Program-made: the position numbers and the translations under genes
Part shown: positions 1,447-31,342 of the stretch, piece by piece
How positions within the stretch are numbered: the stretch's first letter is position 1
Layout: the number at the start of each line of letters is the position of its first letter
Origin: Massilicoli timonensis
GTDB lineage: Bacteria; Bacillota_I; Bacilli_A; Erysipelotrichales; Erysipelotrichaceae
DNA length: 32,000 bases
Direction: 5' to 3'
Assembly (NCBI RefSeq): GCF_900199515.1
Contig: NZ_LT963434.1
Coordinates: 1,802,180-1,834,179, forward strand
The notes under the pieces: model-generated
The model's database searches: none
The model's input: only the letters and a program-made list of their open reading frames with translations
Told to the model about the DNA's origin: nothing

Positions 1447-1484
1447 CGATCAACTGAATACTTCAAAACGATATCAAATCAATC

Positions 1485-1547
1485 GTGATCTTAAGCAAAG
1501 ATACTTCGATAAAACGAAGGATCTTATCACTTGAGATCACTTTTTTT
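1485..1547 (+). terminator. Rho-independent terminator after the surface-protein gene
   Basis: Long imperfect two-helix hairpin (GTGATCTTAAG..AGATACTTCG / CGAAGGATCT..CTTGAGATCAC) followed by T7. Confidence 0.6.
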
Positions 1548-1842
1548 ATGCGTGAGAAACTCACTTTTTCTTTATCTGCTTCCATACGTGAATCTTGCCC
1601 TTGCGCTGTTCAAAAAAGTAATAAAATATACAGAAAAAAATAACAAACATTCATTTTTTCTTTCCGCTGAAAGCGGCAAAATCTTCACTGTTTATCTGCG
1701 TATTTACCACTTTTATCCAAAAAATAGCAGGGCAGGAAACATTTTTTGTACTTTACAAACAGCTGAAAACATGCTTCTTTTACCGTTCTTTTTTAGTTTA
1801 GGAATTGTCTTTTTCAAGCACAAATATTGAACTGAAAAAACA

Positions 1843-1919: not shown

Positions 1920-2360
1920 ATGTTAAAGGACTTGACAAATGAAAAGCTGATCAGGCTTGGCATTGAGGCAAAAGACTGGGAAGATGCGATCAGAAAAGCC
2001 GCACAGCCGCTGCTTGATGAACACAAGATCAAACAGTCCTATATAGACGACATGATCGCAGGTATCAAAGAAGTCGGACCTTATATCGTATTAGCGAAAC
2101 ACATTGCATTGCCGCACGCAAGGCCGGAGGCAGGGGCGCTGGAAAGTGCGATCGGAGTTGCGACCTTAAAAGAACCGGTCGTATTCGGCAATGAAGCAAA
2201 TGATCCGGTCAAATATCTGTTTTGCCTAAGTGCAAAAGATGATATGGAACATTTACAGGCACTTGCGCAACTGGCAGAACTATTTGAAGATCAGGCGTTC
2301 TTTGAACTGTTGGATCGTACAGATGATCCGCAAGAAATTATTGCATACATCAGCAAATAA
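1920..2360 (+). CDS. PTS EIIA component, ascorbate/mannitol-type (PTS_EIIA_2; SgaA/UlaC-like)
   Basis: AGGAGG RBS 9 nt upstream. HIALPHARPE phosphorylatable-His motif. Size of 146 aa is typical of the family. Confidence 0.85.
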   Translation: MLKDLTNEKLIRLGIEAKDWEDAIRKAAQPLLDEHKIKQSYIDDMIAGIKEVGPYIVLAKHIALPHARPEAGALESAIGVATLKEPVVFGNEANDPVKYLFCLSAKDDMEHLQALAQLAELFEDQAFFELLDRTDDPQEIIAYISK

Positions 2361-5428: not shown

Positions 5429-6313
5429 ATGAAAATGGAAGGGATCATAACACCGATCGTAACGCCGTTTCATCGTGATGCAGAAGAGAGCATCAACTAT
5501 GAAGCGACAAAACATCTCATCGATCATCTGATCGATCATGGGGTCAAGGGAATCTTTATCTTAGGCAGCAACGGTGAATTTCATGTCTTGTCGGAGGAAG
5601 AAAAGGTCGCTTATGCCAAAGCGGTCATCGACATCGTCGATCATCGAGTGCCGGTATATGTGGGAACAGGATGCTGCTCTACGAAAGAAACGATACGTTT
5701 ATCTAAAAAGATGGAAGCATTGGGTGCAGACGCATTGTCTGTCATTACCCCTTACTTCTTAAAACCAAGCGATGAAGATCTGTATGCACATTACAAAGCA
5801 GTGGCGGAAAGTGTATCCATTCCCATCATGCTGTATAATATTCCAAAAGCAACCGGCTGTCCGCTCAGTCCTCAGTTAGTAGATCGCTTGGCAGATATTG
5901 AAAACATCAAAGGGATCAAAGACAGCAGCGGAGAAGCGGAACGCTTACAGGCATATGCGCAGATCGCAAAAGAAAAAGACCTGCAATTATTGATCGGCTC
6001 TGATTCGAAGATATCTTATGGATATGGATTAGGGGCAAAAGGAGCAGTAGCAGGGACAAGCAATGTCATCGTGGATACGCTGGTCGGATTAGATAAGGCA
6101 TTAAAAGAAGGAAATGAAGAAAAAGCAAAGAAACTGCAAAATGATATTGATGTATTAAGAGGGGTGCTTCCGCTTGGCACGGTACCGAGCGTAATGAAAC
6201 GGGCAGTGGAATTAGCGGGGATCGCAGAAGTGGGACCGGCGCGAAGACCGGTGCGAGAATTAAGTGCAGAAGATGATGAAAAGATCAAAGAAATGCTGCA
6301 CTATTACTTCTAG
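5429..6313 (+). CDS. DapA/NanA-family class I (Schiff-base) pyruvate aldolase / dihydrodipicolinate-synthase-like lyase
   Basis: 294 aa. GIFILGSNGEF, YNIPKATG and IKGIKDSSG (Schiff-base Lys context) motifs. AAGGAGG RBS. Confidence 0.8.
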   Translation: MKMEGIITPIVTPFHRDAEESINYEATKHLIDHLIDHGVKGIFILGSNGEFHVLSEEEKVAYAKAVIDIVDHRVPVYVGTGCCSTKETIRLSKKMEALGADALSVITPYFLKPSDEDLYAHYKAVAESVSIPIMLYNIPKATGCPLSPQLVDRLADIENIKGIKDSSGEAERLQAYAQIAKEKDLQLLIGSDSKISYGYGLGAKGAVAGTSNVIVDTLVGLDKALKEGNEEKAKKLQNDIDVLRGVLPLGTVPSVMKRAVELAGIAEVGPARRPVRELSAEDDEKIKEMLHYYF

Positions 6314-6981: not shown

Positions 6982-9054
6982 ATGGATAATGAACTCATGA
7001 CGCTGCTGCGTTTTTTGTCAAAGAAAACATATGTAACGCTGAAAGATATTGAGCTTTACTTTAACATTACGACCAGACAGGCGTCTTATCGTCTGGACAA
7101 ACTGAATGATCTGTTAAAAAGCGCGCAAGTGCCGCAGCTCAGCTATTCTACTTCGGCACGGAAACCGATGAAGCTGTCAAAAGAAACCGGGGCGGCGATC
7201 GAAGCGTTTTTGACCTCTGCCAATGTGAATGAAGGCTATTATTTCAGTAAGAAGGAACGTCTGATCTATATTTATCTGTTATTGTTTTTAGATTTGGAAT
7301 ATGTGTCCCTGCCGGACTTTATCGATGCGATGCAGGTCAGCCGTTCTACGGTACTGATGGATCTAAAAGAATTGACGCAGATTTTGGAAGAACATCATAT
7401 CAAGATCAAAAATAATCGGGTAAAGGGCTATTATCTGGTCGGTTCGGAAATGGAGATCCGCCGCTATATGATGCGCGATGTCATCTATACGCTGGCAGAG
7501 GGCAGCGGCAAGGTGTTTGATGTTTTTATCGACAAGCAGCAGTTGGATATTTTCGACTATTCCCGTTTGGTGATCAGTGAATTGGCACAGACTTATCATA
7601 TTCGCTTTGTGGAAGATCGCCTTGCGGAATTTATTTATATTTTCATCTTCTTAAAGGCGAGAATGCAGCGCGGCAAAGACGCCTCTGCGGAAATCGAACA
7701 GATAATGGATCTGCAAATCATGACGTCCATGAAGGAATATGAATTTACAAGAGCGTTGTTGAAAAACTATAAGAATGCGGACGGCATCAAGGAAAGCGAT
7801 GTGAACTATATCGCCGCTTGGATCTTAGGAATTTCTTTCGGTGATATCAACGAAGATACGAAAGACTGTATCGTCATATCCGATCTGATCGGGAAAATCA
7901 TGACGCGTTTTGAATATTTAAGCGGTACGCATTATAAAAATACAGAAGAGATCTTTATACAGTTATATTCGCATTTTCGTCCGGCCTACTACCGGTTGAT
8001 CTTTAAGCTGCCGATCTTTAACCCACTGCGGGAAAAGGTAAAAGAGGAATATCCGGAACTGTATCGCTTGGTGGCGGAAACGATGAAGCCGTTTCAGGTT
8101 ATGTTCGGCGAAGCGCTGCCGGATGATGAGATCGCTTATTTGGCAATGCACTTTTCCATGATCTATTCCGGGAAGCAGGACCATAAGGGCGCGCCGCAGA
8201 AAGTAGCGCTCGTCGTTTGTTCACATGGCATTGGAAGCTCAGCGATCCTCTACAATGAGTTAAAAGCGATGTTTCCGGAATTTCACTTTCTGCCGCCGAC
8301 AGAGTCATTACAGGTACATGCCTATATCGGACAGGTGGATATCATTTTTTCCACCAATTATATAGCGGCGGATGTCAGCGGGCATATTCCGGTGATCAAG
8401 GTCAGTCCGATCATGTCTACTGCGGAACGCTATCAGGTATTCAGAGAGGTATATGTGCAGATGGGCGGTTCATTCTTAAAACAGCCAAGTGTCGATGTTG
8501 TGATGAATATTGTTTCTAAATATGCGGATATCAAGGAAGAAGAGGGGCTTTATCATGAGCTGATCGCTTATTTCTCGCATGTCGATACACTGCCGCAGAC
8601 CCAAAGCACTTTGACCTTATCGGATATGGTAAATGCAAAGATCATTCAGTTACAGGCAGCGGCACAAAACTGGGAAGAGGCGGTGCGGATCGGTTTTGCA
8701 CCGATGGTAAAGGAAGGTTATATCACACAAAATTATGTGGAGGAAACGATACGAAGCGTAAAAATGATCGGGCCTTATATCGTCATTACGCAGCATGTCG
8801 CATTGCCGCATGCTCGTCCTGAAGCTGGCGCCTTGAAAGAAGCCTTGGGCATTACCGTATTAAAGGAACCGGTCGTGTTCGGAAATGAGGCCAATGATCC
8901 GGTCAAATACATTTTCTCTTTAAGCGCCGTAAACAACGAAAATCATATCCGCGCCATGGCGAAATTGATGGAGCTGCTGAATGATCAGGCATTTTTCCGT
9001 TTATTAGATGAAGCAAAAAACGCAGAGGAAATCCTGCAATATATCAATCAGTGA
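6982..9054 (+). CDS. PRD-domain transcriptional activator of the LicR/MtlR/BglG-family type (HTH, two PRDs, EIIB-like and EIIA-like domains)
   Basis: N-terminal HTH region. Central PRD-like region. VALVVCSHGIGSS EIIB-like Cys loop. C-terminal EIIA domain with VALPHARPE. GGAGGAG RBS favours ATG 6982 over 6961. Confidence 0.8.
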   Translation: MDNELMTLLRFLSKKTYVTLKDIELYFNITTRQASYRLDKLNDLLKSAQVPQLSYSTSARKPMKLSKETGAAIEAFLTSANVNEGYYFSKKERLIYIYLLLFLDLEYVSLPDFIDAMQVSRSTVLMDLKELTQILEEHHIKIKNNRVKGYYLVGSEMEIRRYMMRDVIYTLAEGSGKVFDVFIDKQQLDIFDYSRLVISELAQTYHIRFVEDRLAEFIYIFIFLKARMQRGKDASAEIEQIMDLQIMTSMKEYEFTRALLKNYKNADGIKESDVNYIAAWILGISFGDINEDTKDCIVISDLIGKIMTRFEYLSGTHYKNTEEIFIQLYSHFRPAYYRLIFKLPIFNPLREKVKEEYPELYRLVAETMKPFQVMFGEALPDDEIAYLAMHFSMIYSGKQDHKGAPQKVALVVCSHGIGSSAILYNELKAMFPEFHFLPPTESLQVHAYIGQVDIIFSTNYIAADVSGHIPVIKVSPIMSTAERYQVFREVYVQMGGSFLKQPSVDVVMNIVSKYADIKEEEGLYHELIAYFSHVDTLPQTQSTLTLSDMVNAKIIQLQAAAQNWEEAVRIGFAPMVKEGYITQNYVEETIRSVKMIGPYIVITQHVALPHARPEAGALKEALGITVLKEPVVFGNEANDPVKYIFSLSAVNNENHIRAMAKLMELLNDQAFFRLLDEAKNAEEILQYINQ

Positions 9055-9064
9055 GGCGGGAGAG

Positions 9065-9478
9065 ATGGAACGGGCGATCATAAAAGATCCTGTGTTTCTC
9101 GCTGTTATCAGTACAGCGGCAACGAAGGAAGATCAGGTCATCGCACAGGATCTGTTAGATACACTAACTGCCAATCAAGCGCGCTGCCTTGGACTGGCGG
9201 CTAATATGATCGGCGCTTCTAAGCGCATCATTGCGTTTTTTGATGATAAAACGCCGGTCTTGATGTATAATCCGATCATCTTAAAAACAAGCGGGAAGCG
9301 ATATGAGAGCGAGGAAGGGTGCCTTTCCTTAACAGGAGTGAGAAAAACACTGCGCTATGAGAAAATAAAAGTGCAGTATGAAGATGTGCATTGGAAAAGG
9401 CGTATCCGATCTTTTCAGGGATTAAGCGCGCAGATCATCCAGCATGAAATCGATCATTGTGATGGGGTGATCATCTAA
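9065..9478 (+). CDS. def: Short peptide-deformylase-family protein (137 aa) with a divergent motif I
   Basis: EGCLSL (motif II) and QHEIDHCDG (motif III) are present. Motif I reads CLGLAANM instead of GxGxAAxQ. ATG 9065 follows the regulator stop by 10 nt. Confidence 0.7.
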   Translation: MERAIIKDPVFLAVISTAATKEDQVIAQDLLDTLTANQARCLGLAANMIGASKRIIAFFDDKTPVLMYNPIILKTSGKRYESEEGCLSLTGVRKTLRYEKIKVQYEDVHWKRRIRSFQGLSAQIIQHEIDHCDGVII

Positions 9479-9500
9479 GAACAGGGAACTGTTCTTTTTT
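9477..9500 (+). terminator. Rho-independent terminator after the def-like gene
   Basis: AAGAACAG / CTGTTCTT stem, GGAA loop, T-run; overlaps the stop codon. Confidence 0.75.
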
Positions 9501-9552
9501 ACGGTTTTATCAGGTGATCAATTATGGAATGGCCTGCACCTTTGACGGCGCA

Positions 9553-9565
9553 AAATTGGTTTTTT
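9553..9565 (-). promoter_or_regulatory. Copy of the intergenic AAAAAACCAATTT box (minus-strand orientation)
   Basis: The plus strand reads AAATTGGTTTTTT. Its reverse complement matches 13 of 15 nt of the box at 12722-12736 and 17386-17400. Confidence 0.35.
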
Positions 9566-9924
9566 GGCAGGGAAATATAAGAAACTAACTATGTTTTACA
9601 TGCAAGCGTTCAAATGGCGGTAATACTATTTTCACGTTTTTGCGGATATGGTAATATTTAATACAATGTGAGACAAGATCATGAAAACAAATACCGACGC
9701 AGCATCGTTTCATGTGAGAAAAAAAGTTGCGTTGTGTATAAAAAGCATGGTTAAGATGTTTAGATGACACATCCATGATCATTTTCCCATAACAGGAAAA
9801 CCTTTTCCTTGTCAGAAGGAATAAAGATCAGCATGATGGGAATCGATCATCTTGAAATAGCCGAAAGTTTGTTTGTTCACGCCATCCAAGAAAAGAAAAT
9901 CAAAAACGGGAGAGAATCAGTACG

Positions 9925-11508
9925 ATGAAAAGATATTATAGAAAAATCAAATATTTTATATTATTAGATATCATTTTATATGGAGTGAGTGTTTTGTCCA
10001 CTGCATATATGTCCATATTATTGATCAGATTTATTGATCGAGGCTATCAAAGCGAATTTATAAAAATCATTTTCCTATACGCTTTCGCAATAGGAATCCA
10101 TCTGCTCACTGCTTATCTCTGTAATCTATTGCAGTGGGTATATGGGAATCGTTTTCGTTTGCTTCTATCAGAGGACTATTTTACATCGGTCATTCAGCAG
10201 CAACCGACCGATTTTTACAGTAAACCGGCACAGTATTATACTGAGTTTCATACACAGGATCTAAAGGCGATCGAAGCAGACTACCTGATGCCAATGTTGT
10301 CTATTCTAAAATGTATCATGACCTTGCTGATCAATTTTTTGGTGTTAAAAATATATATACAGGAATGGATCTTGTTTGTTGTCATGTTTTTGGCGCTGGT
10401 CAGTTTGTTGATTCCTAAGATTACCGCAAAAAGTTTAGCTAAGCGCAGAGATCAGGCGATCGAACAAATGAAGAAATTTCAGTTATACAATCAGGACTTA
10501 TTACGAGGCTATAACTGGATCAATAATAGAACAAAAGCAGCCTTTCAGAAAGAAAACCGAAAACAGATAGACGAACAATTAGAAAAAGATTTTCGCTATG
10601 GAAAGTGCAAATCTGCCGCATTGGTAATGAATGCCGGCGCTAATATGATGATTATTTTAGTTGCGATCATTTTAGTCGGTATAGAATTAAAAAACGGCAG
10701 GATGTCTTTTGGCGTAGCCAGTTCACTTATGATGAATATCGCTACATTTGTCGATCCATTTGCGGAAATCACTTATTGTATCAATGCACTTCATACGGCA
10801 AGTACGCTCAAAGACCGCTTTTTACACTTTGTAAATAACCATCAAACACCGCTCATCAAGCAAAAAGCGACAAGCGGGAATCAAATCACGATGGAACACA
10901 TTGATTATCAGATTGGAACCTATCAGCTGAAAATAGAGGAACTGATCTTTGAAAAAGGAAAAAAATATCTCATTGTCGGTGAGAATGGAGCCGGGAAATC
11001 CACTCTATTGAATCTATTAGGCAGCCAATTACTCGATTATGAGGGCAGTGTAAAGATCGATGGAATGGATATCAGAGCAGTGGACTGCACGGATTGGATC
11101 GCTTATTTAAGACAGTCCGATCACTTGTTTTTATCTGATTATGAGAATAATGTTACTTTGTTTAACAGTTATCCGTTACAGGTGAATAAACTGATTTCCA
11201 ATGACAAGATACGGCGAAATAAAAACAGAGAAGGATTAAGCGGCGGCGAACAGAAATTTGTGCTGCTGGATCGTATTTTCAATATGGATCGTGCTTTCAT
11301 TTTATTAGATGAACCATTTGCGGAATTGTCGGAAGAAGCCAAACAAGAATATTATGCGTATTTCATGCAAAAGCCAAATACGATCATCATGATCAGCCAT
11401 GATCGGGTCGATTACAGTCTATTTGATGCCGTTGTGAAAGTAAAGAAAGAAAATAATTGCGCATATGCTTATGCAACGCATCCCTTTCATCAGGATGGAA
11501 CAGTTTGA
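9925..11508 (+). CDS. Fused ABC exporter half-transporter (N-terminal 6-TM-type domain plus C-terminal ATPase)
   Basis: Walker A GENGAGKST, signature LSGGEQ, Walker B ILLDEP and H-loop ISHD in the C-terminal third. The N-terminal 300 aa are hydrophobic. Confidence 0.8.
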   Translation: MKRYYRKIKYFILLDIILYGVSVLSTAYMSILLIRFIDRGYQSEFIKIIFLYAFAIGIHLLTAYLCNLLQWVYGNRFRLLLSEDYFTSVIQQQPTDFYSKPAQYYTEFHTQDLKAIEADYLMPMLSILKCIMTLLINFLVLKIYIQEWILFVVMFLALVSLLIPKITAKSLAKRRDQAIEQMKKFQLYNQDLLRGYNWINNRTKAAFQKENRKQIDEQLEKDFRYGKCKSAALVMNAGANMMIILVAIILVGIELKNGRMSFGVASSLMMNIATFVDPFAEITYCINALHTASTLKDRFLHFVNNHQTPLIKQKATSGNQITMEHIDYQIGTYQLKIEELIFEKGKKYLIVGENGAGKSTLLNLLGSQLLDYEGSVKIDGMDIRAVDCTDWIAYLRQSDHLFLSDYENNVTLFNSYPLQVNKLISNDKIRRNKNREGLSGGEQKFVLLDRIFNMDRAFILLDEPFAELSEEAKQEYYAYFMQKPNTIIMISHDRVDYSLFDAVVKVKKENNCAYAYATHPFHQDGTV

Positions 11509-11626
11509 TCAGGGAGTGTCATCTGTTTTGTAAACGCGCTTGATTTCAAAGAAAGTCGCTGAAAACATGATCATGCACGCGTTTTGTTCTTTATGATATT
11601 TGAAAACAGCGGAAATCGAATGCCAT

Positions 11627-11665
11627 GAAAAAAGGATGAGCGTCATCGTTTTATGACACTGATCC
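11627..11665 (-). terminator. Rho-independent terminator of the lipid kinase gene (minus strand)
   Basis: On the minus strand, a GGATCAGTGTCAT / ATGACGCTCATCC stem (2 mismatches) directly after the stop codon, followed by T6. Confidence 0.6.
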
Positions 11666-12538
11666 TTATTTTATTTCATTCACTAGTCTGATCGCTTTCG
11701 GTAATACCGTTATCTCGATTCTATCATCCGGGTAAGGCTCTCCGTCCAAATTCATTCCCTGTTTTGACAGAACTTGCAGATGCTCGCATTGAAAGATCGA
11801 ACACTCCTTTAATCGCTGTGGCTTATTGCCAAGCAAGGCAGGACACTTATATAAGATACGCCATCTGGGAAAAGATCGAATCAAGCAAACATCCATTTTT
11901 CCATCATCTAATTTGGCGTCAGGAGTAAAGCAGAAACCGCCGCCGTAAAACTTCGCGTTGTTGCAGGCAAGAAATAAGGCTTTTCCTTGATATACATGCC
12001 TGCCATCGGCAATCAGTTCCACTTCATTGCATGGATAGACAAACACTCTGCGCAAGACCGTTGTCAGGTATGCCAGTTTTCGAGGAATCAGCGACCAGTT
12101 TTCATCATGTACGTGCTTGGCGATATCACTGTCCAGCGCAAAACAAGCGGCGTTGATGCAATAATGATCATTTACTTTCAGCACGTCGATCGCCTTTGCC
12201 TCTTTTGCGAGCGAGTGGCGAAAATGTGCGAGGATATCTTTTCGATCCTTCAACATTCTGGAAAAGTCATTGCCGGTACCACAGGGAATCAGCACTAATT
12301 CATGGGAAGAACCCTGCAATGCGTTGATGACCTCATGCAAAGTGCCGTCGCCTCCGCATATATAAAAGCGGCATGGATCATGGTAAGAAGCGATAATGGC
12401 GTCTGCCTCCGCACTGCCCTTGGTAAGATGAATCGCATAAGGAAGCGCACGTGCACGAAAGGTCGTTTCCATCTCTTTCAATAATTCTTTTAGATTTTTC
12501 TGCTTTGCCATCCGATTGATGATGACCACATGTTTCAT
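11666..12538 (-). CDS. Diacylglycerol-kinase-family lipid kinase (YegS/BmrU/DagK type)
   Basis: 290 aa. GGDGTLHEV and GTGNDF motifs of the DAGK catalytic domain. Confidence 0.8.
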   Translation of the reverse strand: MKHVVIINRMAKQKNLKELLKEMETTFRARALPYAIHLTKGSAEADAIIASYHDPCRFYICGGDGTLHEVINALQGSSHELVLIPCGTGNDFSRMLKDRKDILAHFRHSLAKEAKAIDVLKVNDHYCINAACFALDSDIAKHVHDENWSLIPRKLAYLTTVLRRVFVYPCNEVELIADGRHVYQGKALFLACNNAKFYGGGFCFTPDAKLDDGKMDVCLIRSFPRWRILYKCPALLGNKPQRLKECSIFQCEHLQVLSKQGMNLDGEPYPDDRIEITVLPKAIRLVNEIK

Positions 12539-12671
12539 GTAAATTCCCTTCCTTTGTTATCCTTACTCATTTTACATGATTCAAAACCGATGTGCAATGA
12601 AATGTACGGATTATCTGCTGTTTTATAGGACATCAGATACGCGAACATACGCTATGGCAAAGGAATAAGAG

Positions 12672-12682
12672 AATTGGTTTTT
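12672..12682 (-). promoter_or_regulatory. Copy of the AAAAACCAATT box oriented toward the minus-strand lipid kinase gene
   Basis: The plus strand reads AATTGGTTTTT. It is embedded in the near-palindrome AAGAGAA-TTGGTTT-TTCTCTT (12667-12687). Confidence 0.35.
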
Positions 12683-12721
12683 CTCTTGTCAAAAGTAAAG
12701 TATTTGTTCGTTTTTATAGTT

Positions 12722-12775
12722 AAAAAACCAATTTATGAAAAAGTGTTTACAAGAAACCACTTGATATGCTTAAAT
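12722..12775 (+). promoter_or_regulatory. AAAAAACCAATTTAT box plus an extended -10-like element upstream of the permease/ATPase/secreted-protein operon
   Basis: The 15-mer at 12722-12736 is identical to 17386-17400. TGcTTAAAT at 12767-12775 lies 30 nt downstream. No good -35, as expected for an activator-dependent promoter. Confidence 0.45.
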
Positions 12776-12826
12776 TAGAACAACATTACTATCATATCTT
12801 CATATAAAAAGTGTAGGTGATCGACC

Positions 12827-14890
12827 ATGAAAAAAATTATTTCCGTATTCATCGTATTTATTTCCTTTTTGGTATTTCATATCAGTTTCCAAGAGTATGG
12901 AGAGATTGAATGGCTCAATTTAGAAAATCCGACAAGCAGCATCAGTAAAGCATTAAATCAAACGTCATATCGGGTGGTTCTTACTGATGATGGCAAGGGT
13001 AATCTGCTGGAGGATATCATGGATTTTGCCGATGAGAACGATTTGATCGTGTTCGGTGGAAGAACCGATCAGCATCCGGATTTTACCGATGTTTCCAGCT
13101 ATTATGTATATACAAAAGATTGCCGGATATTTGATGGAACCTTCTTTTTGTACGATGGCAAGCAGATATGTTTTGATGACCATAACGCATACTATACGAC
13201 TAATGTGAATGATGAGCAGGCAACCGGCTATATTGAAACGGTTAATCGTGAATATCTGAAAGCATACGGCGATAAATTTGAGTTTCATTACTTTGATCGT
13301 TTTTTTGAAAAAGGAGAACAGCCGTTTCTGGCAGCGTGGTTTATCACAGCGCATCCGGAGAAATTTATCTATCAGCTCAATCACTCTAATCTGAAACAGT
13401 ATATAAGAGAAGGAGATGAAGCGAGCATTTTTCATTCCGCCGAAAAACCTGCCGCAGTCAATCAACTGATCGTACTGCTGTTGTTTGTATCATTGATCTC
13501 AATGGTATTGCTGTTTCTATGTAAAATCGTGCAGGAACGAAAAGAGATCCTGATCAGGAAAATGCAGGGGATGTCGTCAATTTCCATTTTCATGAGGAAA
13601 TATTTATGGGAATTACTTGCTTTTTTCCTTATTTATATCGTTGTACAGATCATCTGCTTTTATTTCGCTGTCGGCAAGATCACTGCCGCAACGCATGGAC
13701 TGATTGACATACTGCTTCGCTATTTCACGATTTACAGCTGTATGATACTGGTGTTGGCAGTCGTTATGATCTTGTTCATTTGGAATAGGAAAGAGATTTC
13801 TTCCATCAAGCGAAGCAATACGCAAAAGCAGATTCCGATCATCAATATGATCTTAAAAATCGTTGTGATCATACTGATCATAGAACCGTTGATCAGTTTT
13901 ACAAAAACAGGGATACGGCAAGCACAAACCGCTCTCTATATGAATGAGCAGGGGCATGTATTATCCAATTTATTGTTCATCTATGGCTTGAAAGAAAATA
14001 CCGGCAATTTAGGACCGATCATCATAAAGATGAGAGAGTATTTTAATGAAAACGGGGGCTGGTATCAGGATTGGCGAAAATATATTCCGGAGATAAAATA
14101 TCCGTATGTGGTCGTAAATCAGAATTATCTGGAAAACTATGATCTTTATACAACTGACGGCAAGAAACTGGATCTTTCAAAGTTAAAACAAGATCAATTA
14201 TTAGTTCCGGAAAAGTACCAATATCAAGATTTGAGTTACTATGGAATGGAAAACAACAAGGGGTACTATGATGGGGAAATCATCGTTTTGAAGAACGGCT
14301 ATCATATTGATAATCTTGATGTTTATAGCTCTATGAATGGCTTTCTCGGTGCAGATGATCCGATCATCTATGTGAAAACTAAAATGGATTCTGACTGTCA
14401 ATGGAATTATTCGTACATGACGATCTATTTAGACGATGAGCAAAAAAAGGAAAAATTGAATCAGTACCTGCATGAAGTCGGATTAGAGGATGAGGTACTG
14501 TTGGCGACATCGCAGCAGCACTATCAAATAATGAAAGAGAAAGTAAAAGATGATCTGATATCGGTTTTATCCTTGTTTGTTATTTATTTGGTAATCATCT
14601 GCACCTTCTTATATGAAAATATATTTATCTACTTCATTGAGAACAAGACAAAGTTTGCGGTGCGTTATCTGAATGGAAGCAGTTATTGGGAACGACATGG
14701 CGATATGATAAAACTAAATTTAGGTGCATATGCAATACCGCTTTTATACGGATATTTCCGGCTGCATATCGCATTGTTTGACATATTGGCGTTTACTGCA
14801 TTGGCGATGATAGTGGAATTAGCGGCGGCTTACGTGATCATTACGCATTTTGAAAAAAATCGTATCGTGGAAGTGCTGAAAGGAGAGTAG
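12827..14890 (+). CDS. Large integral membrane protein with two FtsX-like permease modules; architecture of the bacteriocin-associated (DUF1430/TIGR01654-type) membrane proteins
   Basis: 687 aa. N-terminal TM, about 190-aa extracytoplasmic domain, TM cluster, second extracytoplasmic domain of about 200 aa, and a C-terminal TM cluster. Paired with a MacB/LolD-type ATPase. AGGTGA RBS. Confidence 0.65.
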   Translation: MKKIISVFIVFISFLVFHISFQEYGEIEWLNLENPTSSISKALNQTSYRVVLTDDGKGNLLEDIMDFADENDLIVFGGRTDQHPDFTDVSSYYVYTKDCRIFDGTFFLYDGKQICFDDHNAYYTTNVNDEQATGYIETVNREYLKAYGDKFEFHYFDRFFEKGEQPFLAAWFITAHPEKFIYQLNHSNLKQYIREGDEASIFHSAEKPAAVNQLIVLLLFVSLISMVLLFLCKIVQERKEILIRKMQGMSSISIFMRKYLWELLAFFLIYIVVQIICFYFAVGKITAATHGLIDILLRYFTIYSCMILVLAVVMILFIWNRKEISSIKRSNTQKQIPIINMILKIVVIILIIEPLISFTKTGIRQAQTALYMNEQGHVLSNLLFIYGLKENTGNLGPIIIKMREYFNENGGWYQDWRKYIPEIKYPYVVVNQNYLENYDLYTTDGKKLDLSKLKQDQLLVPEKYQYQDLSYYGMENNKGYYDGEIIVLKNGYHIDNLDVYSSMNGFLGADDPIIYVKTKMDSDCQWNYSYMTIYLDDEQKKEKLNQYLHEVGLEDEVLLATSQQHYQIMKEKVKDDLISVLSLFVIYLVIICTFLYENIFIYFIENKTKFAVRYLNGSSYWERHGDMIKLNLGAYAIPLLYGYFRLHIALFDILAFTALAMIVELAAAYVIITHFEKNRIVEVLKGE

Positions 14891-14894
14891 AGCG

Positions 14895-15530
14895 ATGGCA
14901 AAAATAATAGAAGTGAAAAAACTGTGCAAAGCGTTTGGCGATCAGCAGGTATTCGAAGATTTTTATGCGGAAGTAGAAGAAAATGAATTTGTGGCGATTG
15001 CGGGGAAATCCGGAAGCGGGAAATCGACATTGTTGAATATGATCGGTTTGTTGGATAAACCAAGCAGCGGAGATATCATCTTATTTGGGGAAAAGAATAT
15101 CAAACCGTTTTCCATGCGCGCCGAAAAAATGTTGAAGCATCACATCGGTTATTTGTTTCAAAACTTTGCCTTAGTGGAAAATGAGAGCGTCTATTACAAC
15201 ATGATGCTGGCGATAGAAAATCAGAAGATCAAAGATAAGAAAACGAAGATTGCGGAAGCGTTAAAGGCAGTCGGTTTAGAAGGGTATGAAAATAAAAAGG
15301 TCTATAAATGTTCGGGAGGGGAACAGCAGCGGATCTCGATTGCACGGCTTTTGATCAAGCCTTGTGATCTGGTCTTGGCAGATGAACCGACGGGAAGCTT
15401 GGATCACGAAAATAAAAAAATCGTGTTTGACTTATTAAAGAACTTACAGAAGTTAGGGAAAACGATCGTGGTCGTTACACATGATGAAGAGATGATTGCG
15501 GTGGCAGATCGGACGATCATGATTTCATAG
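14895..15530 (+). CDS. ABC transporter ATP-binding protein (MacB/LolD/FtsE-like)
   Basis: Walker A GKSGSGKST, signature CSGGEQQR, Walker B LVLADEPTGSLD and H-loop VVTHD. Starts 4 nt after the permease stop. Confidence 0.9.
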   Translation: MAKIIEVKKLCKAFGDQQVFEDFYAEVEENEFVAIAGKSGSGKSTLLNMIGLLDKPSSGDIILFGEKNIKPFSMRAEKMLKHHIGYLFQNFALVENESVYYNMMLAIENQKIKDKKTKIAEALKAVGLEGYENKKVYKCSGGEQQRISIARLLIKPCDLVLADEPTGSLDHENKKIVFDLLKNLQKLGKTIVVVTHDEEMIAVADRTIMIS

Positions 15531-15595
15531 CGGGGATATGATCATATTGTTTCTGTAATATGATGATATAAATTTGGTGAAAGGAGGAAAAGAAA

Positions 15596-15928
15596 ATGAA
15601 GAAAATCACCAAAACAGTTTTATGCAGTATGGCTTTGATAGCCGCATCGGGAGCAACTGTGTTTGCGGATATGAAGAAGATTCCGGATCCGGGCAGCGTG
15701 ACCTTAAAGTATGGAAGAGCCCAGACAATGGATACGCCAAATGGATTTGGAACACAGGGAAAATGTGATGATGTGAAAGATGCGCGTGTAGCCGTGTATG
15801 TGAAAGATACATACAATAATGTAATGGCAGCCGCCACGGTAAAACCGAATGCGACCGGTAGTTGTACGTGGAATGCACCGACCGGCACCCCACATGAACA
15901 TCACGCAGGCTCGGATTTATATAAGTAA
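15596..15928 (+). CDS. Small secreted protein (110-aa precursor, about 85-aa mature, two Cys); candidate Sec-dependent bacteriocin-like product
   Basis: AAAGGAGG RBS. Signal peptide MKKITKTVLCSMALIAASGATVFA|D. Last gene of the permease/ATPase operon. No family recognisable by eye. Confidence 0.6.
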   Translation: MKKITKTVLCSMALIAASGATVFADMKKIPDPGSVTLKYGRAQTMDTPNGFGTQGKCDDVKDARVAVYVKDTYNNVMAAATVKPNATGSCTWNAPTGTPHEHHAGSDLYK

Positions 15929-15956
15929 TAAGCAGCACGCATCGTGATAGGAAATA

Positions 15957-15989
15957 GGAGAAGCGAAGGAAATACGCTTGTCCTTTTCT
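15957..15989 (+). terminator. Probable rho-independent terminator after the secreted-protein gene
   Basis: GGAGAAGCG / CGCTTGTCC stem (1 mismatch), 9-nt loop, TTTTCT. Confidence 0.45.
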
Positions 15990-16092
15990 GCTTATCATGC
16001 GTATTCAATGTGATAGAAATAATTTCAAAAGTAGTGGGAAGATAAAAGAATCTATGGTAAGATAAATACGGTTATTTTAAGAGGGCGGTATT

Positions 16093-17325
16093 ATGGGAAA
16101 TAAAATGAAGACGATGTCACAGCAGGTAAAGGAAGAAATCTATTTGTTGTTGGAAACGTATCGTAAGATCAGCGGAAAAAGCGTAAAAGAATTTACAGCA
16201 AATAATGGGAAGATCGGCTGTTCTGTTACGAGCTATCGCAGAATGGGGCATCAAGGGGTTTCTGATTATCAATATTTAGATTTATTGGACTTTCATCAAA
16301 AAACATATTGCCAAACGATTCCGTTAAACGAACAAGAGCAGCATACTGTCAGGGAGTTACATCAGGCAGTTGTTTTTTATCGTTATGATACCTGCATCGC
16401 TTTGATTGATGAATTGACTGCACAATTAAAATCCAGTCAGGATATACGGGTGTATTTACTGTGGCTGTTTTTGGAAGAGCTAAGAGAATATTTTGAAAGT
16501 ATCAACTATTTAGACGAAGAGCAGATCAGGGCATATCTTAGCATTGCGCATTTATATCCGACAGAAATAAAGGATTTGATAGAGTTTTATTGTGTTTATT
16601 CAGCACAGAAGGTATCACGCTTATTGATGCATGAGATTTATCAAAATACTGAAATAGGATATAGTAAATTTCCGCCAGTTGTTGTGCATGCAATGGCGTA
16701 CGATTTTAATTATGAAGAATTTGAACGCGGGATTATAAAAAGTGCCGGTCTGAAAAAACAGGCAATGGAGACTGACAATCATGTACTGCTGTTTGAATAT
16801 TATGACAGCATGATCACTTACTATATTCAATGTGAACCGGATAAGGTTAAAGATGCATTGATCAGTATGGAAGAACTAATAAATAAGTCTTCTTTTCCAA
16901 ATGCGAAAAAAATCCAATTTTATAACAACGCAGCACATAATTATGTGTTTTTGAATTGTTTTGATCAAGCTCTGTATTATTTTGAACGCTATCTTCATGA
17001 GGCAAGTAAATTAAAATTGTGTTTAGATGGAAATATTTATACCAATATAGTTTTTTGTAAACATATGTGTGATATGCCATATGATATAGATTTAGAAGTA
17101 TTAACAACAAACAAATTTTATAGTTTGGCAGACTATTACTTATATGAATATTTTATGGAACAGTCTTTGCTTGAAACAAGAGATAAGAAAATTCGTTTTA
17201 TCAGAAATAAAATAATCAAGCACTTTAGTAAAGATGATAACTTCACTAAATATATGGTTCGATTAGAATTGATGAGAATAATCGATCAAAGTAAAAATTT
17301 AGATTTGATCCTACAAACGATGTAA
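16093..17325 (+). CDS. Cytoplasmic HTH (XRE-like) plus long helical-repeat (TPR-like) regulator; candidate RRNPP-type peptide receptor (paralog 1)
   Basis: 410 aa with no TM or signal peptide. N-terminal YRKISGKSVKEFT...CSVTSYRRM resembles an XRE HTH. The remainder is rich in Y/L/E/F helical repeats. Collinear similarity to the 29852-31066 product. Followed by a propeptide gene. Confidence 0.65.
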   Translation: MGNKMKTMSQQVKEEIYLLLETYRKISGKSVKEFTANNGKIGCSVTSYRRMGHQGVSDYQYLDLLDFHQKTYCQTIPLNEQEQHTVRELHQAVVFYRYDTCIALIDELTAQLKSSQDIRVYLLWLFLEELREYFESINYLDEEQIRAYLSIAHLYPTEIKDLIEFYCVYSAQKVSRLLMHEIYQNTEIGYSKFPPVVVHAMAYDFNYEEFERGIIKSAGLKKQAMETDNHVLLFEYYDSMITYYIQCEPDKVKDALISMEELINKSSFPNAKKIQFYNNAAHNYVFLNCFDQALYYFERYLHEASKLKLCLDGNIYTNIVFCKHMCDMPYDIDLEVLTTNKFYSLADYYLYEYFMEQSLLETRDKKIRFIRNKIIKHFSKDDNFTKYMVRLELMRIIDQSKNLDLILQTM

Positions 17326-17385
17326 TCATTAGAAAATGTGGTTTTTGCGGAATAAAACATGAGGAAAATTCAATAAAATAAAGGC

Positions 17386-17437
17386 AAAAAACCAATTTAT
17401 AAGAATCTCTTTCTTTTTGTGAGAGATTTGGTAAAAT
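17386..17437 (+). promoter_or_regulatory. AAAAAACCAATTTAT box plus an extended -10 (TGgTAAAAT) upstream of propeptide gene 1
   Basis: The 15-mer at 17386-17400 is identical to 12722-12736. TGGTAAAAT at 17429-17437 lies 28 nt downstream. An inverted partial copy, AGAGATTTGGT, sits at 17422-17432. Confidence 0.5.
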
Positions 17438-17465
17438 CATATCGTTAATAGGGAGGTTGTGTTTA

Positions 17466-17576
17466 ATGAGAAAAATGTTATTAGGTACTTTGATGTTCGT
17501 AATGCTGGCAGCTCTTGCTACACCGGTTTCGGCAGATGAGCCGATGCCTATGGGTACTTGGAACGAAAAAGTATAA
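17466..17576 (+). CDS. Unannotated 36-aa secreted propeptide (candidate quorum-sensing pheromone precursor 1): MRKMLLGTLMFVMLAALATPVSADEPMPMGTWNEKV
   Basis: GGGAGG RBS 9 nt upstream. Canonical Sec signal peptide with a VSA|DE cleavage site. 13-aa exported tail. Terminator immediately after the stop. Located 140 nt downstream of the regulator. Confidence 0.7.
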   Translation: MRKMLLGTLMFVMLAALATPVSADEPMPMGTWNEKV

Positions 17577-17603
17577 GATCATAGAACGCTATGGTCTTTT
17601 TTT
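17577..17603 (+). terminator. Rho-independent terminator after propeptide gene 1
   Basis: GATCATAG / CTATGGTC stem (one G-U pair), AACG loop, T7. Confidence 0.75.
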
Positions 17604-17671: not shown

Positions 17672-19042
17672 ATGAATAAAAGCCGTATGGAAACAGAGCC
17701 GATCGGGAAATTATTGTTTTCCCTCGCAGTGCCGACGGTATTGGCGCAGTTAGTCAATCTGCTTTATAATATCGTGGATAGAATTTTTGTCGGAAGAATG
17801 GCAGGAGTCGGTGATCTGGCATTGGCAGGTCTGGGCGTCAGTTTCCCGATCATCATGTTGATCAGCGCATTTGCGGCGTTGATCGGGATGGGCGGTGCCC
17901 CAAGAGCCTCTATTCATATGGGAGAGAAGCGCAATGATAAAGCGGAGAAGGTACTGGGGAACTGCGTGAGTGCACTTACGATCTGTGCGATCATACTTAC
18001 GATCGTCTTTTTATGGATCAAAGATCCGATCTTGCTGCTGTTTGGCGCCAGTGAAAAAACGCTGCCTTATGCAAGTGATTATCTGGGCATCTATTTGATC
18101 GGTACGATTTTTGTGCAGTTTGCATTAGGATTAAACATGTTCATCACTTCGCAAGGTTTTGCGAAAACCGGAATGGCGACCGTTTGCATCGGAGCGATCA
18201 TCAATATCATTCTGGATCCGATCTTTATCTTTGTGTTTGATATGGGAGTGCGTGGAGCGGCATTGGCAACGATCTTATCACAGGCGGTATCGGCGCTTTG
18301 GGTTTTGTACTTCCTTGTGGGGAAACGTACGATCTTAAAGATTCGTAAAGAGAATCTGAAATTAGAGCGAACGGTCATGATGCCGGTGCTGGCTTTAGGG
18401 ATTTCGCCTTTTGTCATGCAGGCGACGGAATGTCTGGTGCAATTAACCTTTAATAAAAGCATTGCTTATTATGGAAGCGATCTATATGTTACGATGATGT
18501 CGATCTTATTTTCGGTCATGCAGTTTATTTGGCTGCCGATGCAGGGATTTTCTCAGGGAGCACAGCCGATCCTAAGCTATAATTTCGGCTCGGGCAACTA
18601 TGAACGGGTACGCAAAACTTTTCGCTTGCTGTTTCAGGCGCTGATTGTTTATTCATTGCTTTTGGTCGGCAGTGTCGAGCTGTTTCCGCAGTTCTATATC
18701 GAGTTATTTGCACCTGACAATGCGGCGTTAATGGAGATTGCGGTGCCCGGCATTCGAATCTTTATGTTCGGCATGATGTTTATGGGCGCGCAAAGTGCTT
18801 GCCAGCAAACTTTTCTTGCACTGGGGGAAGCAAAGGTTTCTATGTTTCTGGCGTTTTTGCGCAAGCTGATCTTGCTTTTGCCGCTGATCTTGCTTTTGCC
18901 GCTGTTTGTCAAACCGGGAACGACCGGGGTATTGTTGGCGGAAGCGGTTGCCGATATTTTGGCGGTCAGCGTAACGGTGATCATATTTTCAAAGCGTTTT
19001 CCGCAGATCTTGGCAAAAAAGAGGCAAGAAACAAGTATGTAA
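17672..19042 (+). CDS. MATE-family efflux transporter
   Basis: 12-TM-type protein with the typical N-terminus PIGKLLFSLAVPTVLAQLVNLLYNIVDRIFVG. AAAGGA RBS favours ATG 17672 over 17645. Confidence 0.85.
   Translation: MNKSRMETEPIGKLLFSLAVPTVLAQLVNLLYNIVDRIFVGRMAGVGDLALAGLGVSFPIIMLISAFAALIGMGGAPRASIHMGEKRNDKAEKVLGNCVSALTICAIILTIVFLWIKDPILLLFGASEKTLPYASDYLGIYLIGTIFVQFALGLNMFITSQGFAKTGMATVCIGAIINIILDPIFIFVFDMGVRGAALATILSQAVSALWVLYFLVGKRTILKIRKENLKLERTVMMPVLALGISPFVMQATECLVQLTFNKSIAYYGSDLYVTMMSILFSVMQFIWLPMQGFSQGAQPILSYNFGSGNYERVRKTFRLLFQALIVYSLLLVGSVELFPQFYIELFAPDNAALMEIAVPGIRIFMFGMMFMGAQSACQQTFLALGEAKVSMFLAFLRKLILLLPLILLLPLFVKPGTTGVLLAEAVADILAVSVTVIIFSKRFPQILAKKRQETSM
18866..18901 (+). repeat. 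Perfect 18-bp tandem duplication inside the MATE gene
   Basis: CTGATCTTGCTTTTGCCG occurs twice back to back and in frame, giving LILLLP-LILLLP in the last TM region. Confidence 0.95.
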
Positions 19043-31066: not shown

Positions 31067-31194
31067 ATCACATAAAAAGTAAACAATTATGCAACTTTTT
31101 TCAGCGTTATCTAACCTATTTGTAAACAGTGGCATTTTGTTATGGCGTGTGATAATCTAAAGATAGGAAAGGAGTTTATAATAAAATTGTTGTA

Positions 31195-31317
31195 ATGATG
31201 AAAAGAACTAAGATATTATTAAAATTAGCATTGCTTTTCTGCTTGATCGTTTTGACGGCAAATGCAGTAGAAAGCATGCAACCGCGTTCAAGAGAAACGT
31301 GGATAGAAAAAAATTAA
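31195..31317 (+). CDS. Unannotated 40-aa secreted propeptide (candidate pheromone precursor 2): MMKRTKILLKLALLFCLIVLTANAVESMQPRSRETWIEKN
   Basis: Sec signal peptide with an ANA|VES cleavage site. 16-aa tail whose end, ETWIEKN, parallels GTWNEKV of peptide 1. Lies 128 nt after the regulator. The RBS is poor (GGAAAGGAG is 20 nt upstream), which lowers confidence. Confidence 0.55.
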   Translation: MMKRTKILLKLALLFCLIVLTANAVESMQPRSRETWIEKN

Positions 31318-31342
31318 ATCATTTAATGAGAGAGGAGCAAAA

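What the first reader, a model, noticed from the sequence alone, without database searches (positions are those of the whole stretch)
12667..12775. Identical 15-bp box with the same promoter geometry in front of the transporter operon and propeptide gene 1
AAAAAACCAATTTAT occurs identically at 12722-12736 and at 17386-17400. An exact 15-mer shared by two short intergenic regions is very unlikely by chance.
- In both cases an extended -10-like element follows at nearly the same distance: TGcTTAAAT after 30 nt and TGgTAAAAT after 28 nt.
- Neither has a convincing -35. This is the layout of activator-dependent promoters, where the operator replaces the -35 region.
- The first copy precedes the permease/ATPase/secreted-protein operon. 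The second precedes the propeptide gene.
- Together they suggest an autoinduction loop plus an output operon controlled by the adjacent receptor.
- A shorter inverted copy (AATTGGTTTTT, 12672-12682, inside the palindrome AAGAGAA-N7-TTCTCTT) points toward the divergent lipid kinase gene.
- The related elements AGAGAATTGGT (12668-12678) and AGAGATTTGGT (17422-17432) match at 10 of 11 nt.
- A degenerate relative, AACCTATTTGT at 31113-31123, lies upstream of TGtGATAAT (31148-31156) before propeptide gene 2.
Basis: partly seen in the sequence, partly recalled or inferred. Interest (0 to 1): 0.72.

Follow-up and report, generated by a model that had tools for sequence, protein, structure and literature searches.

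The report
Shared promoter box in quorum-sensing bacteriocin locus
A short DNA box repeated four times around a peptide-signalling regulator gene of the gut bacterium Massilicoli timonensis is most likely the site where that regulator switches on both its own signal peptide and a neighbouring bacteriocin-immunity-type transporter operon, the standard wiring for this class of system in a previously undescribed family.

Summary
AAAAAACCAATTTAT is identical at 12722-12736 and 17386-17400. With the inverted 11-mer at 12672-12682, the core AAAAACCAATT occurs four times, all intergenic and all within 8 kb. It is the most repeated 11-mer in the window and rarely arises in shuffles.

The 410-aa protein has no Pfam hit. 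Profile search and an AlphaFold model show an HTH plus TPR receptor distantly related to PlcR and Rgg. It belongs to a tiny family whose members are each followed by a small signal-peptide-bearing ORF. In two distant relatives the regulator again sits beside a ~110-aa secreted protein, a DUF1430 permease and a lactococcin-972-type ABC ATPase.

The best reading is therefore an operator shared by the propeptide promoter and the output operon, as in ComRS or PlcR circuits. Binding is not shown.

Several details fail:
- The box lies at about -60 to -44, so it does not replace the -35.
- The operon's proposed -10 (TTAAAT) is weak, and a -35-like TTTACA exists.
- The "degenerate relative" at 31113 and the 10/11 match are at chance level.

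This is a new member of a known kind, of moderate interest.

The parts
12722..12736 (+). Box copy A, AAAAAACCAATTTAT, 90 nt upstream of the DUF1430 permease start codon
   Evidence: Invariant in 8 other M. timonensis contigs, although SNPs fall 2 nt upstream and in the flanks.
17386..17400 (+). Box copy B, AAAAAACCAATTTAT, 65 nt upstream of the propeptide 1 ATG (17466) and 60 nt downstream of the receptor stop codon
   Evidence: Invariant in 9 contigs; SNPs occur at 17402 and 17408 in one strain.
9551..9565 (-). It lies just after the def terminator, about 360 nt upstream of a strain-variable ABC exporter gene.
   Evidence: (pair I16). Conserved in L146 and L147. The whole segment is absent in strain L005.
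12672..12682 (-). Box copy D, core AAAAACCAATT on the minus strand, in the loop and right arm of the palindrome AAGAGAA-N7-TTCTCTT (12667-12687)
12746..12775 (+). Candidate P1 promoter: TTTACA (12746-51), 18 nt, TG-c-TTAAAT (12767-75). The -10 is weak because it lacks A at position 2.
   Evidence: Read. Not listed by the consensus scan.
17429..17437 (+). Extended -10 TGgTAAAAT of the propeptide promoter P2. No -35-like hexamer lies 16-18 nt upstream.
   Evidence: Read
16093..17325 (+). Receptor/regulator gene, 410 aa: an N-terminal XRE-like HTH followed by a TPR-like superhelix
17466..17576 (+). Propeptide 1 gene, 36 aa, MRKMLLGTLMFVMLAALATPVSADEPMPMGTWNEKV, followed by a terminator-like hairpin at 17575-17598
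   Evidence: Called as a gene in all same-species contigs.
12827..15928 (+). Output operon: a DUF1430/FtsX-like permease (12827-14890), a lactococcin-972-type ABC ATPase (14895-15530) and a 110-aa secreted protein (15596-15928)
17404..17428 (.). 7-bp inverted repeat AATCTCT-N11-AGAGATT between box B and the -10. Its meaning is unknown. One arm carries a SNP in strain L008.

Best explanation
The box is a cis-regulatory site, or at least one half-site of one. Through it the adjacent HTH-TPR peptide receptor (16093-17325) co-regulates two things. One is its own secreted propeptide gene, giving autoinduction. The other is the neighbouring operon, which encodes a DUF1430 permease, a lactococcin-972-type ABC ATPase and a ~110-aa secreted, probably bacteriocin-like, protein.

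Proposed mechanism (inferred):
1. The 36-aa precursor is exported by Sec and trimmed.
2. A C-terminal fragment containing the T-W-x-E-K region is re-imported and binds the TPR domain.
3. The receptor, bound at about -60 to -44, then recruits RNA polymerase to a promoter that has an extended -10 but no -35 (P2), and boosts a weak promoter (P1).

Copies C and D may be auxiliary sites, or a site for the strain-variable ABC exporter gene.

Shown here: the repeat and its clustering, the receptor fold and family, the propeptide adjacency, and the conserved synteny. Inferred: binding, the direction of regulation, and the transcription starts.
For: **The motif**
- The two flanking promoter regions share an exact 15-mer, P about 0.001.
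- The core occurs 4 times, all intergenic, all within 9.5-17.4 kb. It is the top 11-mer of the window.
- Shuffles reached 4 copies of an 11-mer in 1 of 300 and 3 copies of a 13-mer in 0 of 300.
- There are no further copies in about 18 kb of flanking genome.
- Copy B sits where RRNPP operators are expected, between the receptor and propeptide genes, upstream of a good extended -10 with no -35.

**The receptor**
- The family profile matches the PlcR HTH and first TPRs (2qfc, E=1.5e-7), Rgg structures (E 0.004-0.03), HipB-type HTH domains and consensus TPRs.
- The AF2 model has pLDDT 90.7 and is all helical.
- Foldseek lists Rap, AimR, PlcR, ComR and Rgg3 among the TPR hits.

**The family**
- Family members in five other contexts are each followed by a 38-57-aa ORF with a signal-peptide-like N-terminus.
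- Regulators at about 17-23% identity are again next to a ~109-aa secreted protein, a DUF1430 permease and an ABC ATPase in L010 and L023.
- In L010 the receptor-propeptide spacer holds ATAAAACCATTTTAT (13/15, P=0.013). It ends 66 nt before the peptide ATG, against 65 nt in the window.
- The HTH segment is the best-conserved part between these two proteins: 36% identity over 45 aa.

**Precedent**
- The ComR-box occurs in both the comS and comX promoters (PMC5131891).
- Lactococcin-972-like clusters in streptococci are flanked by Rgg, PlcR or TprA regulators (PMC6120550).
Against: - There is no binding or expression data.
- The box has no dyad symmetry, whereas HTH dimers of PlcR, ComR and AimR recognise (pseudo)palindromes (PMC5131891, PMC6458997).
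- The distance to the -10 differs by 2 nt between P1 and P2, and the P1 -10 is poor.
- Copy C points away from any gene, and copy D is about 100 nt from either promoter.
- Within-species SNP data are too sparse to show purifying selection on the box. About 1.2 variable sites were expected in it and none were seen, which is not significant.
- An unbiased motif search across five propeptide promoters of the family found only the ribosome-binding site.
- Paralogous system 2 and three other loci show no significant shared word among their intergenic regions.
- The L010 match is only marginal after correcting for six tests.
Confidence: 0.5

Rival explanations
1. The box is a real shared promoter element but is not read by the adjacent receptor. 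It could be an A-tract/UP-like element contacted by the RNA polymerase alpha subunit at -60 to -40. It could also be a site for another, possibly global, transcription factor that happens to control both promoters.
For: The box lies exactly in the UP-element zone of both candidate promoters and is A/T-rich with an A6 run. It is asymmetric, as UP elements are. No palindrome typical of RRNPP operators is present (for the PlcR box).
Against: UP elements do not need 15 identical bases or a conserved CC. Two of the four copies are not at UP positions of any recognisable promoter. The copies cluster around the receptor locus rather than at the other promoters of the 50-kb sample. I recognised no match to common Firmicute regulator consensus sites, but this was from memory and is not a test.
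Confidence: 0.2
2. The copies are relics of sequence duplication or horizontal acquisition and have no present regulatory role. They could be duplicated promoter fragments or junction sequences of imported gene cassettes.
For: Similarity between copies A and B extends weakly to 34 nt at 76% (D7). The region 9.5-17.5 kb has lower G+C (0.30-0.40) than its flanks (0.45-0.47). Copy C lies in a 2-kb segment that is absent in another strain. Copies A and B bracket the operon plus the receptor gene as direct repeats.
Against: Copies C and D share only the 11-14-nt core with no flanking similarity, which is unlike repeats of a mobile element. None of the contigs examined lacks the 12722-17386 segment. 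A bracket that separates the receptor from its own propeptide makes no sense as a mobile unit. The exact core persists while the flanks have diverged completely, which suggests constraint.
Confidence: 0.15
3. The receptor does bind the box, but as a repressor that the peptide releases (TprA, PrgX or AimR style) rather than as an activator. In that case it may use two or more boxes together.
For: P1 has its own -35-like hexamer, so it may not need an activator. There are two inverted copies 51 bp apart centre to centre in P1 (copies D and A). P2 has a partial inverted partner, ATTTGG, overlapping the TG of the -10, 27 bp after CCAATT. This recalls the 6-mer boxes with a 25-bp spacer bound by the similarly sized AimR (PMC6458997).
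Against: The main box lies upstream of the polymerase footprint. P2 lacks a -35, which is typical of activated promoters. The partner half-sites are degenerate and are arranged differently in P1 and P2.
Confidence: 0.15

Closest known systems
ComR/ComS (XIP) circuit of streptococci
   Same: One cytoplasmic HTH-TPR peptide receptor. The same box sits in the promoter of the propeptide gene (positive feedback) and in the promoter of the output gene (PMC5131891).
   Different: The ComR-box is a 20-bp pseudo-palindrome with a GACA/TGTC core next to the -10; the box here is asymmetric and lies further upstream. ComS has no Sec leader. ComR is about 300 aa (my knowledge). The output there is a sigma factor, not a transporter/bacteriocin operon.
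PlcR/PapR of the Bacillus cereus group
   Same: This is the closest solved relative by sequence profile (2qfc, E=1.5e-7 over the HTH and first TPRs). The propeptide is encoded immediately downstream of the receptor and carries a Sec leader, and the active part is C-terminal (my knowledge).
   Different: The PlcR chain is 293 aa in the PDB, against 410 aa here. No PlcR box (TATGNAN4TNCATA) lies in the relevant promoters. There is no Pfam or NCBIfam hit to any PlcR-type model.
TprA/PhrA and Rgg regulators flanking bacteriocin clusters in streptococci, including lactococcin-972-like 'streptococcins'
   Same: A peptide quorum-sensing regulator sits next to a cluster of bacteriocin, DUF1430-type immunity protein and ABC transporter (PMC6120550).
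   Different: The receptor family is different. The ~110-aa secreted protein here does not match the lactococcin 972 model. The gene order here is permease, ATPase, then secreted protein.
AimR/AimP (arbitrium) and NprR/NprX
   Same: Large (about 390-420 aa) HTH-TPR receptors with a Sec-exported propeptide encoded downstream. AimR shows that such receptors can use operators with half-sites 25 bp apart (PMC6458997). AimR is among the Foldseek hits.
   Different: Structural similarity is weak (TM about 0.4, E about 0.03). AimR boxes are perfect inverted 6-mers at a single site. No such dyad is shared by P1 and P2.

Membership tests
RRNPP-type quorum-sensing pair (five-criteria signature of PMC10075063) | Propeptide is small (10-100 aa) | tested here: met
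   36-aa ORF at 17466-17576 with a GGGAGG ribosome-binding site. Called as a gene in all same-species contigs.
RRNPP-type quorum-sensing pair (five-criteria signature of PMC10075063) | Propeptide carries a Sec signal sequence | tested here: inconclusive
   By inspection only: an MRK N-region, a hydrophobic core (MLLGTLMFVMLAALATPV) and VSA before DEP. No SignalP-type predictor was available.
RRNPP-type quorum-sensing pair (five-criteria signature of PMC10075063) | Receptor is 250-500 aa | tested here: met
   410 aa
RRNPP-type quorum-sensing pair (five-criteria signature of PMC10075063) | Receptor contains TPR-type repeats | tested here: met
   The window protein alone hits no Pfam TPR model. 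The family profile matches consensus TPR proteins (E down to 5e-44) and PlcR. The AF2 model is a helical-hairpin superhelix that retrieves TPR proteins and RRNPP receptors. Remote family members have sub-threshold TPR_1/TPR_8 hits.
RRNPP-type quorum-sensing pair (five-criteria signature of PMC10075063) | Receptor and propeptide genes are adjacent | tested here: met
   140 nt apart on the same strand. The same arrangement is seen in L010, L018, L024, L148 and window system 2.
RRNPP-type quorum-sensing pair (five-criteria signature of PMC10075063) | The mature peptide binds the receptor and changes its activity | not testable with these tools
   Needs biochemistry or genetics
DNA-binding RRNPP subgroup (PlcR/Rgg/ComR/PrgX/NprR/AimR) | N-terminal XRE-type helix-turn-helix domain | tested here: met
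   Profile positions 8-67 match HipB, PezA and the PlcR HTH. The model has short helices at 10-27, 31-35, 45-51 and 58-67. Remote members have weak HTH_3 hits.
DNA-binding RRNPP subgroup (PlcR/Rgg/ComR/PrgX/NprR/AimR) | (Pseudo)palindromic operator in the target promoters | tested here: not met
   The 15-mer has no dyad symmetry (read). Candidate partner half-sites are degenerate and arranged differently in P1 and P2.
PlcR subfamily proper | PlcR box TATGNAN4TNCATA in front of the propeptide and target genes | tested here: not met
   The only match, with one mismatch, lies inside the def gene at 9377.
Lactococcin 972-type bacteriocin cluster | ABC ATPase of family TIGR03608 | tested here: inconclusive
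   Best hit by far at 250.8 bits over the full length, just under the curated cut-off of 254.85.
Lactococcin 972-type bacteriocin cluster | DUF1430 / TIGR01654 seven-TM 'immunity' membrane protein | tested here: met
   Pfam DUF1430 scores 41.4 bits against a cut-off of 28.2. NCBIfam TIGR01654 scores only 69 bits, below its cut-off of 189.
Lactococcin 972-type bacteriocin cluster | Secreted precursor matching the lactococcin 972 family model | tested here: not met
   The 110-aa protein has no such hit in Pfam at E<=10 or in NCBIfam at E<=1. It does have ~109-aa counterparts in the same operon position in L010 and L023.

The most novel reading that the evidence does not exclude
The receptor belongs to a new RRNPP subfamily, invisible to Pfam and probably to TPR-HMM-based detectors. 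It would recognise an asymmetric 13-15-bp box in either orientation at several sites spread over 8 kb. Acting from about -52, and possibly by bridging distant sites, it would drive a previously unrecognised class of Sec-exported ~85-aa bacteriocins with lactococcin-972-type immunity, together with a strain-variable ABC exporter.
Probability: 0.15. Interest if true: 0.55.

Novelty: new member of a known kind. Interest (0 to 1): 0.38.

Why it matters
If confirmed, this gives a ready-made regulon for an uncharacterised peptide-signalling system in a human and chicken gut commensal: a receptor, a propeptide, an operator and an output operon. It also points to a likely new bacteriocin/immunity module.

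The receptor family is very small, with 22 clusters in 1.84 billion representative proteins, and carries no annotation. A defined operator and cognate peptide would make it experimentally tractable. It would also extend the catalogue of RRNPP systems beyond Bacilli and Clostridia.

The regulatory logic itself is textbook, so the gain is incremental rather than conceptual.

Tried and rejected
1. **Orthologous loci.** Searches of genome contigs and metagenome contigs with a family alignment found nothing.
2. **Word-index protein search.** It returned only the protein's own cluster and P0007.
3. **Box plus -10 pattern scan.** None lay near a family regulator and none was from Massilicoli. This was uninformative and shows the pattern alone is not specific in a 596-Gb collection.
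4. **De novo motif search.** Across five family propeptide promoters it recovered only the Shine-Dalgarno sequence.
5. **Shared boxes in other systems.** Paralogous system 2 and loci L010, L018 and L023 showed no significant shared word.
6. **Population variation.** Nine same-species contigs carry too few SNPs to test constraint on the box.
7. **Structured RNA.** There are no Rfam hits in the window, and the box has no self-structure.
8. **Direct-repeat partner.** AAGAAACCACTTGAT at 12751-65 (12/15) would fit a LytTR-style site. I rejected it because P2 has no partner, its ACC is mutated in strains L004 and L008, and I saw no two-component system among the genes examined near the locus.
9. **AGAGA/TCTCT palindromes as the operator.** I rejected these because the arm order is opposite in P1 and P2 and one arm is polymorphic.
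10. **Alternative sigma-factor -35 (ECF-type AAC).** No matching -10 was found; this was by inspection only.

Full report
**1. Observation**

The window is from Massilicoli timonensis; the 410-aa protein is 100% identical to an NCBI hypothetical protein of that species. The 15-mer AAAAAACCAATTTAT is present exactly at 12722-12736 and 17386-17400 on the + strand.

The first copy lies in the 288-nt divergent spacer between a DAGK-type lipid kinase gene (11666-12538, minus strand) and an operon starting at 12827. The second lies in the 140-nt spacer between the 410-aa ORF (16093-17325) and a 36-aa ORF (17466-17576).

**2. Is it more than chance?**

- For the specific pair of spacers, a shared exact word of 15 nt or more arose in 6 of 5000 dinucleotide-preserving shuffles.
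- Taken over all intergenic DNA of the window (2.48 kb), some shared 15-mer arose in 12% of shuffles. Several unrelated exact 15-mers are shared within the 32 kb. 'Very unlikely by chance' therefore holds only if the two regions are chosen a priori.
- A third near-full copy exists at 9551-9565 on the minus strand (AAAAAACCAATTTTG; 14 nt exactly complementary to 17385-17398).
- With the inverted 11-mer, the core AAAAACCAATT occurs four times. It is the only 11-mer with four copies in the window, and AAAAAACCAATTT is the only 13-mer with three.
- All four copies are intergenic. In shuffled intergenic DNA, four copies of any 11-mer arose in 1 of 300 trials and three copies of any 13-mer in 0 of 300.
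- About 8 kb to the left and 10 kb to the right of the window in other M. timonensis contigs hold no further copy.

The motif is real, and it is clustered between 9.5 and 17.4 kb.

**3. The genes around it**

The operon at 12827 encodes three proteins:
- A 687-aa membrane protein with DUF1430 (above the Pfam cut-off), a weak FtsX match, and a partial match to TIGR01654, 'bacteriocin-associated integral membrane protein'.
- A 211-aa ABC ATPase whose best model by far is TIGR03608, 'putative bacteriocin export ABC transporter, lactococcin 972 group' (250.8 bits; cut-off 254.85).
- A 110-aa protein with a signal-peptide-like N-terminus.

The 110-aa protein does not match the lactococcin 972 model. 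It does have counterparts of 108-109 aa in the same operon position elsewhere, sharing PNG-G and P-G-H-H motifs.

The 410-aa protein has no Pfam or NCBIfam hit. It has a 31%-identical paralogue at 29852-31066. That paralogue is also followed by a small leader-bearing ORF (MMKRTKILLKLALLFCLIVLTANAVESMQPRSRETWIEKN), and then by secreted proteins and a MacB-type ABC transporter. The two propeptides share a C-terminal T-W-x-E-K motif.

**4. What the 410-aa protein is**

An exhaustive HMMER search of 1.84 billion representative proteins with a profile of the two paralogues found only 22 proteins at E<=0.001. The remote members start with an obvious XRE-type HTH signature and give sub-threshold HTH_3 and TPR hits.

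A 19-sequence family profile matches the following:
- PlcR (2qfc, E=1.5e-7, covering the HTH and first repeats).
- Rgg structures (5w4m, 4yv6; E 0.004-0.03).
- HipB- and PezA-type HTH domains.
- Consensus TPR proteins.

The AlphaFold2 model is confident (pLDDT 90.7, pTM 0.85) and entirely helical. It has a small N-terminal helical domain and a long helical-hairpin superhelix. Foldseek against the PDB gives only weak scores (E 1e-3 to 5e-2). Apart from generic TPR proteins, the list contains Rap (TM 0.46), AimR, PlcR, ComR and Rgg3.

The pair meets the operational RRNPP signature of PMC10075063 in four respects: small propeptide, receptor length, TPR content and adjacency. The Sec leader was judged by eye only. 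Because the window protein alone hits no TPR HMM, detectors based on such HMMs would probably miss it.

**5. Comparative context**

Contigs encoding family members were retrieved:
- **L010** (P0007, about 17-23% identity): regulator, 57-aa leader-bearing ORF, 109-aa secreted protein, DUF1430 protein, ABC ATPase, all co-directional.
- **L023** (P0011): regulator divergent from a small ORF, a 108-aa secreted protein, a DUF1430 protein and an ABC ATPase.
- **L024** (P0013), **L148** (P0010) and **L018** (P0003): regulator followed by a 38-39-aa leader-bearing ORF.

The receptor-propeptide pairing is thus a family trait. The link to the DUF1430/ABC/secreted-protein module recurs in three very divergent lineages, which is good evidence for a functional connection.

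At the DNA level the evidence is thin. In L010 the receptor-propeptide spacer contains ATAAAACCATTTTAT (13/15 to the box; P=0.013 in shuffles, marginal after six tests). It ends 66 nt before the peptide ATG, against 65 nt in the window. The HTH segment is the most conserved part between these two regulators, at 36% identity over 45 aa. All other propeptide promoters show only chance-level matches, including the 'degenerate relative' before propeptide 2 (10/15, P=0.61). An unbiased motif search found only the ribosome-binding site.

Same-species contigs are nearly identical. The box copies are invariant while SNPs occur 2 nt upstream of copy A and 2 and 8 nt downstream of copy B. The numbers are too small for significance.

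**6. Promoter anatomy**

- **P2** has a good extended -10 (TGgTAAAAT, 17429-37) and nothing resembling a -35. This is the layout of an activator-dependent promoter.
- **P1** is less clear. TTAAAT lacks the critical A at position 2 and the consensus scan called no + strand promoter in the spacer. A -35-like TTTACA (12746-51) does lie 18 nt upstream of TTAAAT.
- In both cases the box ends 28-30 nt before the TG. It therefore occupies about -60 to -44, upstream of the -35 position rather than in its place.
- The box has no dyad symmetry.
- Candidate partner half-sites exist but are degenerate and differently arranged in the two promoters. In P2, ATTTGG lies 27 bp after CCAATT. In P1, the inverted copy D lies 51 bp upstream of copy A, centre to centre.
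- The AimR precedent of 6-mer boxes with a 25-bp spacer (PMC6458997) shows that large RRNPP receptors can use widely spaced half-sites. The present data do not establish such an operator.

**7. Interpretation**

The most economical reading is the standard RRNPP circuit. The receptor binds the box in front of its propeptide gene (feedback) and in front of the output operon. ComR does this at comS and comX (PMC5131891), and Rgg, PlcR and TprA regulators do it next to lactococcin-972-like clusters in streptococci (PMC6120550). I put this at about 0.5.

Rivals:
- A shared promoter element read by something else, such as the polymerase alpha subunit or another factor.
- Relics of cassette acquisition. 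The 9.5-17.5-kb stretch has lower G+C, and the 2-kb segment holding copy C and an ABC exporter gene is missing in one strain.
- The same binding but with repression instead of activation.

**8. Novelty and score**

The regulatory logic is known. The receptor family, the box sequence and the ~110-aa secreted protein family are undescribed as far as the libraries searched show. I found no paper linking DUF1430 with quorum sensing, and the four papers that mention the species are taxonomy or microbiota studies by title and abstract.

I class it as a new member of a known kind and give it moderate interest.

Noticed in passing
window 9479-11665 versus L005:1460-1573: A roughly 2.1-kb segment is replaced by an unrelated 114-nt spacer in one M. 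timonensis contig. The segment holds box copy C and a 527-aa ABC exporter gene (ABC_membrane plus ABC_tran; best models are peptide/bacteriocin exporters). This is a presence/absence polymorphism between def and the lipid kinase gene.
   Followed up: partly
L018:2962-9654 (also L019-L021) versus L146/L147:7527-9346 and window 91-1830: Next to smpB, some closely related strains carry an insert with a large serine recombinase, a Mob_Pre relaxase and a third paralogue of the receptor (P0003, 357 aa) plus a 38-aa leader-bearing ORF. The receptor family is therefore also spread by a mobilisable element. The window strain has a different 451-aa gene at this spot.
   Followed up: partly
window 29852-31963 and L012:8001-16942: A second receptor-propeptide pair is followed by secreted 206-aa, 136-aa and 122-aa proteins, an ABC ATPase, a 1065-aa MacB-type permease and a 497-aa protein. 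The two propeptides share a C-terminal T-W-x-E-K motif (GTWNEKV and ETWIEKN). No shared box was found in this locus.
   Followed up: partly
window 9500-17500: G+C is 0.30-0.40 across the ABC exporter, the DUF1430 operon and the receptor gene, against 0.45-0.47 in the flanking genes. This suggests horizontal acquisition. The lipid kinase gene in the middle is at about 0.44.
   Followed up: no
window 18865-18900: A perfect 18-nt tandem duplication (GCTGATCTTGCTTTTGCC, two copies) lies inside the MatE transporter gene. It would add six residues in frame.
   Followed up: no
window 5815-5844 and 9818-9847: A 30-nt inverted repeat (80% complementary, with a 15-16-nt exact core) links the inside of ORF 5429-6313 to the spacer just upstream of the variable ABC exporter gene.
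   Followed up: no
window 2199-2215 and 8893-8909: An exact 17-nt direct repeat (AATGATCCGGTCAAATA) occurs in the PTS EIIA gene and in the EIIA domain of the Mga/PRD-type regulator gene. It is most likely paralogous coding sequence.
   Followed up: no
L011:2384-2419: Downstream of the closest non-Massilicoli homologue (P0002) there is no leader-bearing ORF. There is only an 11-codon ORF, MNGPFREIWTL, whose end resembles the RETWIEK end of propeptide 2. It could be a leaderless SHP/XIP-like peptide, or it could be chance.
   Followed up: no
window 12751-12765: A second, degenerate direct copy of the box (AAGAAACCACTTGAT, 12/15) lies 29 nt downstream of copy A. Its ACC is changed to GTC in strains L004 and L008.
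   Followed up: yes
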